Source of the DNA: Escherichia coli
Lineage (GTDB): Bacteria > Pseudomonadota > Gammaproteobacteria > Enterobacterales > Enterobacteriaceae
DNA length: 46,566 bases
Reading direction: 5' to 3' (one strand)
Assembly (NCBI RefSeq): GCF_003334355.1
Contig: NZ_QOWP01000029.1
Of the stretch, positions 34,501-37,500 are shown one piece after another. A program made the position numbers. Position 1 is the stretch's first letter; each line of letters begins with the position of its first letter.

Positions 34501-37500
34501 GCGACTGTTGTCACGGGATTTACTGGCGAGGATTGCCAATAACTCGTCGGCATCACGCCCATCGTTGCGCAGCTCGGCAAACATATTGAGGCTCTCCACG
34601 TCGCGATAGTCAGTAATGCGCGTGAAATGCGGGTTGGTCATGCCAATCTCTTCGCCCTGGTAGATATACGGCGTTCCCTGCATGCCATGCAGCACCATCG
34701 CCAGCATTTTTGCCGCAGGCACGCGGTATTCACCTTCATCACCAAAGCGAGAAACAATGCGCGGCTGATCGTGGTTACACCAGAACAAGGCATTCCATGC
34801 TACGTTGTGCATTCCTTGTTGCCAGTGGCGGAACAAGGTTTTCAACGCCACAAAGTCAGGTTTAGCCAGCGTCCATTTTTCACCACCGGGATAATCGACC
34901 TTCAGGTGATGAAAATTAAAGGTCATCGACAATTCACTGCCTGTCAGTGCCGCGTATCGCTGGCAATGCTCAAGGCTGGTGGAGGACATTTCACCTACGG
35001 TCATTAACCCGCGTGGCGTAAACACATCGCGGTTCATCTCGTGCAAAAACTCGTGTGCTCGTGGCCCGTCGGTGTAGAAGCGACGCCCGTCGCCATCCAG
35101 GTCATCAGGGAAACGTGGGTCTTTGGAGATCAGATTCACCACATCCAGGCGCAACCCGTCGACCCCACGATCGGCCCAGAACTCACAGACTTTTTTCAGC
35201 TCTGCGCGTACCGCTGGATTCTCCCAGTTGAGATCCGCCTGCTCTGGTGCAAAGAGATGCAAATAGTACTGTTCGCTTTCCGCATGCCAGCGCCACGCAC
35301 TACCGCCAAATTTTGAACGCCAGTTGTTCGGTGGCGTTTCTGGTTCGCCATCGCGCCAGATATAAAACTGGCGGTAAGGGCTTTCTTTGTTCAGCGCCTC
35401 GCGAAACCAGGCATGTTGGGTAGAGGTATGGTTAAACACCATATCGAGAATGATACGAATCCCGCGCGATTTTGCCTGCGTCACCAGTTCGTCAAAATCG
35501 TCCAGCGTGCCGTAAGTGGGATCAATCGCCGTATAGTTCGCTACGTCGTAACCGTTATCGACCTGGGGAGAGACATAAAAGGGGGTTAGCCAGATGGCAT
35601 CAACGCCCAGTTTATGCAGATAGTCCAGGCGTTGGATAACGCCACGTAAATCGCCGGTGCCGCTACCCGTGGTGTCCTGAAAACTCTTTGGATAAATCTG
35701 GTAGATAACGCCGTTTTGCCACCAGTGGGGAAGATTAGTCATTACGTTATTCCTGCAAATGCGAGAGGGCGCAATTGCGCCCCGAAGAAAATTAAACAAT
35801 GTCCAGCGTGCCCAGGCGGTATTTCCGCTGATAGATAAACGAGGTGAGTACAATCGGGATGATGATGGCGATAGCCATTGCCAGCGCAAACACCTGCCAG
35901 TAGCTCGGTTGAATCGAGAGAATTCCCGGCAGGCCGCCTACGCCGATGCCATTCGCCATAACGCCGTTCAGGCCGCATAGCAATCCTGCCAGACCAGAAC
36001 CAATCATCGCGCACAGCATCGGGAAGCGATATTTCAGGTTGATGCCGTACATTGCAGGCTCAGTGACCCCAAGCCAGGCGGAGATAGCGGCAGGCACGGA
36101 GATCTCGCGTTCATTGTGCTTGCGGCTGGAAATGATAATGCCTATCACGGCGGAGCCCTGAGCGATATTCGACAGCGCAATCAGCGGCCACACTGGCGTG
36201 CCCCCCATGCTTTGAATCATCTGCAAATCAATAGCAAGGGTGGTCTGGTGTACGCCGGTGATCACCAGCGGCGCGTACAGGAAGCCAAACAATGCCGCAC
36301 CAATCGGAGCAAAGCTGCCGGTCATCAGGTGACGTACCGCAAAGGCAACGCCATCGCCAATCATGCGACCAAACGGACCAATCAGCGCATGGGCGAGGAA
36401 CACCGCGAGGATCAGCGAACAGACGGGTACCACCACCAGATAGAGGTAATCCGGCACGATGCGTTTAAGGCGAGTTTCAATAACGCCCAGCGCCAGTCCG
36501 GCTAACAGTGCCGGGATCACCTGCGCCTGATAGCCTACTTTGGCGATGCTGAACATGCCAAAGTCCCACACTTCCGGCAGCTGCTGCCCGAGCAGATAAG
36601 CGTTCATCAGCTGTGGAGAAACCAGTGTCACGCCAAGCACGATACCAAGGATCGGCGTGCCGCCCATTTTTTTCACCGCTGACCAGCAAATACCGACCGG
36701 CAGGTAGAAGAAGATCGCTTCACCGATCAACCACAGAAAATCGTAGATCGTTTGCAGGGAAGGGTACATTTGCGCCAGCGTCTGACCGTTGCTCATGGGC
36801 AAATCGCCGATCACATTGCGAAAACCGAGGATCAAACCGCCGCTGATCAACGCGGGCAGCAACGGGAAGAAGATCTCCGCGAAATGAGAGATCAACTGCT
36901 CATGCCATTTCATATTCTGCCGGGCGGCTTTTTTTACCTGCTCTTTATCAACCTGCGCCTGTCCGGTTGACGCAATCAGTGCTTGATAGTAATCACCCAC
37001 GTTGGTGCCAATCACCACCTGAAATTGCCCGGCATTGGTGAAACAGCCTTTCACCATGGGGAGTTGCTCAATTTCTTTCGGTCTGGCATTGGCCGGTTGG
37101 TTGAGGACAAAGCGCAGGCGAGTAATACAGTGGCTCACCGTCGCAATATTGCCGCGCCCGCCGACCAGTTCAATCAACCGATCGATATCCGTTTGGTTTA
37201 TTTTGCTCATCATAAAGCCCCATGGCAGATGACATTTTTGGTTGGCTGCAGAATATATTGCGCGGAAAAATTTAAAAACGGGAACGTTCCCGAAACGCAG
37301 CGAAGATCACAATTTATCGTTCAGGAAACGATCAGGACAGGGTGGCGGGGATGATGATTTGTTGCGGTTCGCTGCGCCCGGTTACCTGCGCGATCAACTG
37401 GCAGGCCGCCTGGCGTCCAGCTTCGGCGTAACCGGGATCTACGGTGACGATCTCCGGATGGAGGAATTTCATTAACGGTGTATTACCGACGCTCGCCAGT

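What the first reader, a model, noticed from the sequence alone, without database searches (positions are those of the whole stretch)
37214..37331. Perfect 14-bp palindrome cgggAACGTTcccg upstream of treB
A perfect palindrome with the AACGTT core typical of LacI/GalR-family operators lies about 65 bp upstream of treB and about 40 bp from the treR stop. It is the obvious candidate TreR operator for the treBC operon.
Basis: partly seen in the sequence, partly recalled or inferred. Interest (0 to 1): 0.3.

Follow-up and report, generated by a model that had tools for sequence, protein, structure and literature searches.

The report
Known TreR operator at treBC promoter
The palindrome is real and is almost certainly the DNA site where the trehalose repressor TreR sits to shut off the E. 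coli trehalose uptake genes treB and treC; this is textbook, already-described regulation, so the finding is correct but ordinary.

Summary
The window is E. coli chromosome (treC-treB-treR on the minus strand, then mgtL/mgtA). CGGGAACGTTCCCG is exactly at 37279-37292, 65 nt upstream of the treB ATG and 39 nt downstream of the treR stop. A perfect 14-bp palindrome is not rare in 46.5 kb (5 seen, about 3.6 expected). What makes it real is conservation. The 12-bp core GGGAACGTTCCC (37280-37291) is invariant in all 77 Enterobacteriaceae treR-treB loci examined, and the outer C/G pair is strain-specific. The core keeps a fixed distance from an invariant CRP half-site TGTGATC and from a conserved -10 (TAnnnT). 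The same motif recurs upstream of treB next to TreR orthologues of only 38-49% identity, whose recognition and hinge helices are invariant. It is absent from four genomes that kept treR but lack treB next to it. The best reading is a TreR operator centred near -42.5, between a class-I-type CRP site (about -61.5) and a weak -35, relieved by trehalose-6-phosphate. A hairpin-plus-T-run resemblance to a treR terminator is weak: -5 to -7 kcal/mol, no covariation, invariant loop. The system is already known (Horlacher and Boos 1997, RegulonDB, RegPrecise). Interest is low.

The parts
37280..37291 (.). Conserved 12-bp core of the TreR operator, GGGAACGTTCCC
   Evidence: Identical in 77 of 77 treR-treB loci. 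An exact copy lies upstream of treB next to TreR orthologues of 41-49% identity, and copies with 1-2 mismatches lie next to orthologues of 38-45% identity.
37279..37292 (.). The 14-bp perfect palindrome CGGGAACGTTCCCG as reported; the outer pair is specific to this strain
   Evidence: Base 37279 matches in only 11% of the aligned sequences and is usually A.
37293..37314 (-). CRP-type site AATTGTGATCTTCGCTGCGTTT: strong left half TGTGA (37311-37307), poor right half
   Evidence: TGTGATC is 100% conserved and starts exactly 21 nt before GGAACGTTCC in 75 of 75 sequences. The same spacing holds in the distant loci L085 and L086. CRP binding itself is inferred; cAMP/CRP dependence of treBC is cited in PMC3938415.
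37273..37278 (-). Weak -35-like hexamer TTTTTA, directly abutting the operator
   Evidence: Inferred from a 17-bp spacing to the conserved -10. TTTT is 92-100% conserved.
37250..37255 (-). Predicted -10 hexamer TATTCT (TAnnnT)
   Evidence: TAnnnT sits at a fixed offset from the palindrome in 72 of 75 sequences. The consensus promoter scan found nothing, as expected for an activator-dependent promoter.
37242..37243 (-). Predicted treB transcription start (inferred, not measured)
   Evidence: It lies 7-8 nt downstream of the conserved -10. This places the operator centre near -42.5/-43.5 and the CRP centre near -60.5/-61.5.
35792..37213 (-). treB, the PTS trehalose transporter EIIBC and the regulated gene
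34087..35742 (-). treC, trehalose-6-phosphate hydrolase, second gene of the operon
37332..38279 (-). treR, the LacI-family trehalose repressor
   Evidence: Pfam PF00356 (LacI HTH) is recorded for the identical protein.
37324..37335 (.). Weak second match CTGATCGTTTCC (8 of 12), overlapping the treR stop codon, 44 bp from the main site; probably chance
   Evidence: Present only in the three Escherichia sequences and not conserved elsewhere. About 0.7 such matches are expected by chance in the roughly 240 positions scanned (hand calculation).

Best explanation
The palindrome is the operator of the trehalose repressor TreR at the treBC promoter. A TreR dimer, a LacI/GalR-family protein encoded immediately upstream, reads the two half-sites (Y)GGGAAC with its helix-turn-helix motifs. 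Its hinge helices are expected to contact the central CG step. The site is centred about 42-43 bp upstream of the predicted treB start, wedged between a CRP site (about -61.5) and a weak -35. Bound TreR therefore occupies the DNA that RNA polymerase (sigma region 4 and the alpha C-terminal domains) and the CRP-polymerase contact need, and blocks CRP-dependent initiation. Trehalose-6-phosphate, the product of TreB transport, lowers TreR's affinity for the site and induces treBC. What is shown here: the sequence, its position, its invariance, its fixed spacing to the CRP half-site and the -10, and its co-occurrence with TreR and treB. What is inferred or taken from the literature: physical binding, the inducer response, the transcription start and the steric mechanism.
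For: The site is an exact even palindrome with a central CG in the 118-bp treR-treB spacer. The adjacent genes are TreR and TreB above their curated cut-offs and are annotated as such in 5,426 E. coli genomes. In a phylogenetic footprint of 75 distinct spacers, the 12-mer is 100% conserved while most of the spacer between the conserved blocks is only about 10-60% conserved. The 12-mer occurs in 77 of 81 loci, exactly once in all but L040, which has a second copy elsewhere in the locus. The four loci without it have treR but no treB downstream. In two Enterobacter loci a 1.8-kb insertion separates treR from the block, and the block stays 83-85 bp upstream of treB. The distance from TGTGATC to the palindrome is constant in 75 of 75 sequences, and the -10 TAnnnT is at a fixed offset in 72 of 75. 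Distant TreR orthologues (38-49% identity) have GGGAACGTTCCC or variants with 1-2 mismatches upstream of treB, including one locus where treR and treB are divergent. Their recognition helix (V16, K18-V24, N26) and hinge residues (S53, A54, R55, R58) are invariant. [quoted passage not shown] Repression by TreR, relief by trehalose-6-phosphate and activation in the absence of glucose are cited in PMC3938415 and in bioRxiv 10.1101/2025.04.02.646877.
Against: No paper in the searchable library prints the sequence in connection with TreR. PMC3505978 says RegulonDB lists two TreR operator sites at treBC. I find only one conserved site in Enterobacteriaceae, plus a chance-level second match restricted to Escherichia. 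The transcription start is inferred from a conserved -10, not measured. An alternative, non-conserved -10 (TAAATT, 37269-37274) would place the operator between about -30 and -17; it would still lie inside the polymerase footprint.
Confidence: 0.93

Rival explanations
1. The palindrome followed by TTTTT acts as an RNA hairpin that terminates treR transcription (an intrinsic terminator). This could be instead of, or in addition to, its operator role, insulating treBC from constitutive treR read-through.
For: The terminator scan flags CGGGAACGTTCCCG + TTTTTAAATT on the treR-sense strand. It lies 39 nt after the treR stop, and no better terminator is seen in the spacer. The T-run is 92-100% conserved. 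That conservation is equally explained by the -35.
Against: The hairpin is weak: 5 pairs and -7 kcal/mol in this strain, z = -1.6, and 13 of 200 shuffles fold as well. In most species the outer pair is lost and the energy is about -5.4 kcal/mol. Stem and loop are both invariant, with no compensatory change in 75 sequences. That is the signature of sequence-specific DNA recognition. The nearby treB-treC stem-loop provides the contrast: it keeps its stem while its loop varies. The block stays with treB after insertions and is absent from the four genomes that kept treR but lack treB next to it. In the divergent arrangement of L090 the sites lie upstream of both genes, where a terminator makes no sense.
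Confidence: 0.1
2. The site is an operator for a different LacI-family or other regulator, and TreR binds elsewhere.
For: E. coli has many LacI paralogues that read CG-centred palindromes (one search lists them as weaker matches). RegulonDB reportedly lists two TreR sites, so the exact assignment was not verified here.
Against: The motif tracks TreR orthologues and treB across large evolutionary distance and across gene rearrangement. The TreR DNA-reading residues are invariant in parallel. No other conserved palindrome exists in the spacer.
Confidence: 0.03
3. It is a chance palindrome with no function.
For: Perfect 14-bp palindromes occur at about the expected rate in this window: 5 seen against 3.55 expected.
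Against: The 12-mer is 100% conserved in 77 loci within a spacer that otherwise diverges freely. Its spacing to other promoter elements is fixed, and it recurs in distant taxa.
Confidence: 0.01

Closest known systems
TreR operator of the E. coli treBC operon (Horlacher and Boos 1997, J Biol Chem 272:13026; RegulonDB; RegPrecise TreR(1) regulon)
   Same: Same organism, same genes, same intergenic region. The repressor is LacI-type with trehalose-6-phosphate as inducer and trehalose as non-inducer. This is that element.
   Different: Nothing substantive. The primary footprint could not be read here. RegulonDB is said to list two sites, whereas conservation supports one strong site, in line with RegPrecise's 8 sites for 8 regulators in Enterobacteriales.
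Other LacI/GalR-family operators: PurR purF operator ACGCAAACGTTTGCGT, CcpA cre TGWAANCGNTNWCA, actinobacterial CelR/CebR box TGGGAGCGCTCCCA (sequences recalled from memory)
   Same: All are even inverted repeats with a central CG that are read by a dimer through helix-turn-helix motifs plus hinge helices (family description in PMC4052901). The half-site YGGGAAC resembles the CebR/CelR half-site TGGGAGC.
   Different: The conserved core is short at 12-14 bp, whereas the family motifs in PMC4052901 are described as 16-22 nt. The half-site sequence is specific to TreR.
Catabolite-controlled sugar promoters that combine CRP activation with a local repressor (lac, gal, CytR-regulated deoP2)
   Same: There is a CRP site upstream of a weak -35, with a specific repressor overlapping the polymerase-binding region.
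   Different: Here the single operator sits between the CRP site and the -35. In lac it lies downstream of the start (O1), and at deoP2 it is sandwiched between two CRP sites. No looping partner is conserved.

Membership tests
LacI/GalR-family operator | Even-length inverted repeat with a central CG step | tested here: met
   CGGGAAC|GTTCCCG is a perfect 14-bp palindrome with a central CG. The family criterion is from PMC4052901.
LacI/GalR-family operator | [quoted passage not shown] | tested here: met
   The centre is 72 bp upstream of the treB ATG, between a conserved CRP half-site and the conserved -10.
LacI/GalR-family operator | A cognate LacI-family regulator with an N-terminal HTH is encoded in the locus | tested here: met
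   TreR scores 590 bits against TIGR02405 (cut-off 357). Pfam PF00356 is recorded for the identical protein.
LacI/GalR-family operator | The motif is conserved upstream of orthologous target genes and co-varies with the regulator | tested here: met
   It is invariant in 77 loci. It is kept next to orthologues of 38-49% identity whose recognition helix is invariant. It is absent where treB is absent.
LacI/GalR-family operator | Direct, effector-sensitive binding of the regulator to the site | not testable with these tools
   This needs EMSA or footprinting. The primary paper is not held in the library. The PDB holds only the TreR effector domain, 4XXH, residues 61-315, with no DNA complex.
Intrinsic (Rho-independent) terminator of treR | A stable GC-rich stem-loop immediately followed by a U-tract | tested here: inconclusive
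   The stem has 5 pairs at -7 kcal/mol with z = -1.6, followed by TTTTT. Most species have only 4 pairs and about -5.4 kcal/mol.
Intrinsic (Rho-independent) terminator of treR | The structure, rather than the sequence, is conserved: compensatory changes and a variable loop | tested here: not met
   Stem and loop are invariant, with no covariation in 75 sequences. The treB-treC hairpin shows the opposite pattern.
Intrinsic (Rho-independent) terminator of treR | It stays attached to the 3' end of the gene it terminates | tested here: not met
   It is separated from treR by 1.8-kb insertions in L036 and L047 and stays with treB. It is missing from four loci that retain treR.
CRP-activated class I promoter | A CRP site centred near -61.5 relative to the transcription start | tested here: inconclusive
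   The TGTGA half-site and its spacing are invariant. The -61.5 position depends on a start inferred from the conserved -10. The right half-site is poor (1 of 5 bases) in E. coli.

The most novel reading that the evidence does not exclude
The same 12-14 bp might do double duty. As DNA it is the TreR operator. As RNA, with the following U-run, it might be a weak terminator or pause site for treR transcripts, and bound TreR might add a roadblock. Repressor occupancy would then both block the treB promoter and insulate treBC from read-through out of the constitutive treR gene.
Probability: 0.1. Interest if true: 0.3.

Novelty: already known. Interest (0 to 1): 0.08.

Why it matters
It matters little beyond annotation. 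The element is the textbook control point that couples trehalose uptake at low osmolarity to the intracellular inducer trehalose-6-phosphate and to catabolite control. The comparative data here add a clean phylogenetic footprint: a 12-bp invariant core, fixed CRP-operator-(-10) spacing, and persistence of the motif down to about 40% TreR identity. That could serve as a well-defined natural operator for LacI-family specificity studies or for trehalose-responsive synthetic circuits.

Tried and rejected
- **Primary papers.** I tried to retrieve Klein et al. 1995, Horlacher and Boos 1997 and Hars et al. 1998 by PMC id, PubMed id and DOI. None is held.
- **Full-text search for the motif.** A search for GGAACGTTCC found 16 papers, none about TreR.
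- **Other literature searches.** Searches on TreR, operator, footprint and CRP gave only secondary statements.
- **Consensus promoter scan.** It found no sigma-70 match in the spacer. The -10 was identified from conservation instead.
- **Inverted-repeat finder.** It reported nothing in the spacer with a 6-nt seed and a 10-nt minimum length.
- **Second TreR site.** I looked for the second site that RegulonDB is said to list. The only candidate (37324-37335, 8 of 12) is at chance level and restricted to Escherichia. No TreR-like site lies upstream of treR, so there is no sign of autoregulation in E. coli.
- **Protein searches.** The search for homologous proteins returned only close relatives. 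The representative search was needed to reach distant orthologues.
- **Unusable loci.** L082 is a C-to-T converted assembly, and L089 is too short to include a neighbouring gene.
- **Rejected readings.** A chance palindrome and a pure treR terminator are both rejected, for the reasons given under the rival explanations.

Full report
**Identity of the region.** A 1.2-kb piece around the finding is 100% identical to many E. coli chromosomes and matches all 5,426 complete E. coli genomes. RefSeq annotation of an identical record gives treC, treB and treR on the minus strand of the window, then mgtL and mgtA on the plus strand. In window coordinates, treC is 34087-35742, treB is 35792-37213 and treR is 37332-38279. 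NCBIfam confirms both proteins far above their curated cut-offs: TreR scores 590 bits against TIGR02405 (cut-off 357), and TreB scores 974 bits against NF008236 (cut-off 409).

**The observation.** CGGGAACGTTCCCG lies at 37279-37292 and is a perfect palindrome. It is the only exact copy in the window. The coordinates 37214-37331 are the whole 118-bp intergenic spacer. As a bare palindrome it is not statistically remarkable. The window contains 5 perfect palindromes of 14 bp or more, against 3.55 +/- 1.85 in 300 first-order Markov simulations. Only its placement in this short spacer is unusual (about 0.009).

**Comparative evidence.** One scan of the species-representative genome collection with TreR returned 80 loci with 83-99% TreR identity, nearly all labelled as Enterobacteriaceae. 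treB follows treR in 76 of them. I aligned 75 distinct treR-treB spacers, read on the treR/treB sense strand.
- Most of the spacer is poorly conserved, with about 10-60% of sequences agreeing with E. coli per column.
- Three islands stand out: TGTGATC (100%); TTTC-GGGAACGTTCCC (99-100%) followed by TTTT (92-100%); and a TAnnnT hexamer.
- The base after GTTCCC (window 37279) agrees with E. coli in only 11% of sequences and is usually A, including in another E. coli strain (L003). The conserved unit is therefore the 12-mer at 37280-37291, and the perfect 14-mer is a strain feature.
- The 12-mer occurs in 77 of 81 loci, exactly once in all but L040, which has a second copy elsewhere in the locus.
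- TGTGATC starts exactly 21 nt before GGAACGTTCC in 75 of 75 sequences. TAnnnT lies at a fixed offset downstream in 72 of 75.

**Natural experiments.** Four loci have an intact treR but no treB downstream: L004 (Escherichia sp. E1V33), L005 (E. whittamii), L030 and L034. All four lack the palindrome and the whole promoter block. Two Enterobacter loci (L036, L047) carry a 1.8-kb insertion with an Hcp-like ORF between treR and treB. In both, the block stays 83-85 bp upstream of treB. The element therefore belongs to treB, not to the 3' end of treR.

**Distant orthologues.**
- A search of 50%-identity representatives and contig look-ups gave TreR orthologues of 35-49% identity.
- With the treR-treB-treC order kept, an exact GGGAACGTTCCC lies upstream of treB in L083 (48%), L084/L085 (47%) and L088 (39-41%). 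L086/L087 (44-45%) have two sites with 1-2 mismatches, 46 bp apart.
- In L090 (37-38%) treB is divergent from treR, and two GGGAACGTTACC sites lie in the shared upstream region.
- The 20-nt TGTGA-to-GGGAAC spacing recurs in L085 and L086.
- Across these proteins the recognition helix (V16, K18-V24, N26) and hinge residues (S53, A54, R55, R58) are invariant, although overall identity is 35-48%. That matches an unchanged DNA target.

**Promoter anatomy (inferred).**
- The conserved -10 is TATTCT at 37255-37250, which gives a start near 37243/37242.
- A weak -35, TTTTTA, lies at 37278-37273 and directly abuts the operator.
- The operator is centred at about -42.5/-43.5.
- The 22-bp CRP-type site AATTGTGATCTTCGCTGCGTTT (37314-37293) is centred at about -60.5/-61.5, a class I position.
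- The conserved TTT just before the palindrome fits the flank of the CRP consensus.
- A non-conserved alternative -10 (TAAATT, 37274-37269) would put the operator inside the spacer of the core promoter. Either way TreR overlaps the polymerase footprint.
- The consensus promoter scan finds nothing, as expected for an activator-dependent promoter.

**Mechanism.** The most likely mechanism is steric. A TreR dimer on GGGAAC|GTTCCC sits between CRP and the -35 and prevents productive polymerase binding and CRP-alpha-CTD contacts. Trehalose-6-phosphate releases it. The regulatory logic is stated in papers I could read: repression by TreR, induction by trehalose-6-phosphate, trehalose as a non-inducer or anti-inducer, and activation in the absence of glucose (PMC3938415; bioRxiv 10.1101/2025.04.02.646877; PMC7549927). 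[quoted passage not shown] Its supplement lists a TreR(1) regulon in Enterobacteriales with 8 sites for 8 regulators. That fits the single conserved site found here.

**Rival: a treR terminator.** The scan flags the palindrome plus TTTTT as terminator-like on the treR sense strand. The hairpin is weak: -7 kcal/mol, z = -1.6, and 13 of 200 shuffles fold as well. Most species lose the outer pair and reach only about -5.4 kcal/mol. There is no covariation at all, and the loop is as invariant as the stem. The stem-loop in the treB-treC spacer gives an internal contrast. Its stem GGGGCGC/GCGCCCC is kept while the 4-nt loop varies (AATT, AGTT, CGTT, GCTG), which is how an RNA structure evolves. Together with the insertion and deletion evidence above, a terminator as the main function is unlikely. 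A minor secondary role cannot be excluded.

**Open point.** PMC3505978 states that RegulonDB lists two TreR operator sites at treBC. In E. coli the only other candidate is CTGATCGTTTCC at 37324-37335. It matches 8 of 12 positions, overlaps the treR stop and lies 44 bp from the main site. It is confined to the three Escherichia sequences and is at chance level: by hand calculation, about 0.7 such matches are expected in the roughly 240 positions scanned. No TreR-like site lies upstream of treR. The PDB holds only the TreR effector domain, 4XXH, without DNA.

**Verdict.** The refinement is that the functional core is the 12-mer. This is the known TreR operator of a well-studied operon. Novelty: already known. 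Interest: low.

Noticed in passing
window 35743-35791 (treB-treC spacer); palindrome GGGCGCAATTGCGCCC at 35767-35782: This is a GC-rich stem-loop between treB and treC. Across Enterobacteriaceae the stem GGGGCGC/GCGCCCC is kept while the 4-nt loop varies (AATT, AGTT, CGTT, GCTG). That pattern fits an RNA structure, such as an intercistronic stabiliser or processing element. No T-run follows it.
   Followed up: partly
L004 (Escherichia sp. E1V33), L005 (E. whittamii), L030, L034; downstream of treR at about 3945: These four genomes keep an intact treR but have no treB and no operator next to it. L004 retains only a treC C-terminal remnant. An orphan TreR suggests either recent loss of treBC or another target.
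   Followed up: partly
L047 3949-5724 and L036 (Enterobacter quasihormaechei, E. chuandaensis): A 1.8-kb insertion carrying an Hcp-like 159-aa ORF and a 230-aa ORF on the opposite strand lies between treR and the treB promoter block.
   Followed up: partly
L086 2806-2863 and 4336-4347; L090 619-688: More distant TreR loci carry two operator-like sites, 46 bp and 58 bp apart. L086 also has GGGAACGCTCCC in its treB-treC spacer. This hints at looping or cooperative binding in those lineages but not in Enterobacteriaceae.
   Followed up: no
L082 (Logan SRR18107613): The contig looks C-to-T converted, like a bisulfite library: the operator reads GGGAATGTTTTT and the gene does not translate to the query. 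This is an assembly artefact in the public collection.
   Followed up: no
window 37314-37330 (minus strand, just after the treR stop): A small AT-rich inverted repeat, ATCGTT-tcctg-AACGAT, folds at -5 kcal/mol with z = -1.5. It is not conserved outside Escherichia and overlaps the weak second TreR-like match.
   Followed up: partly
PMC7567609 (Reg-Seq), yedK promoter; not in this window: That study lists TreR as the factor identified by mass spectrometry at the yedK promoter, a possible TreR target outside treBC.
   Followed up: no
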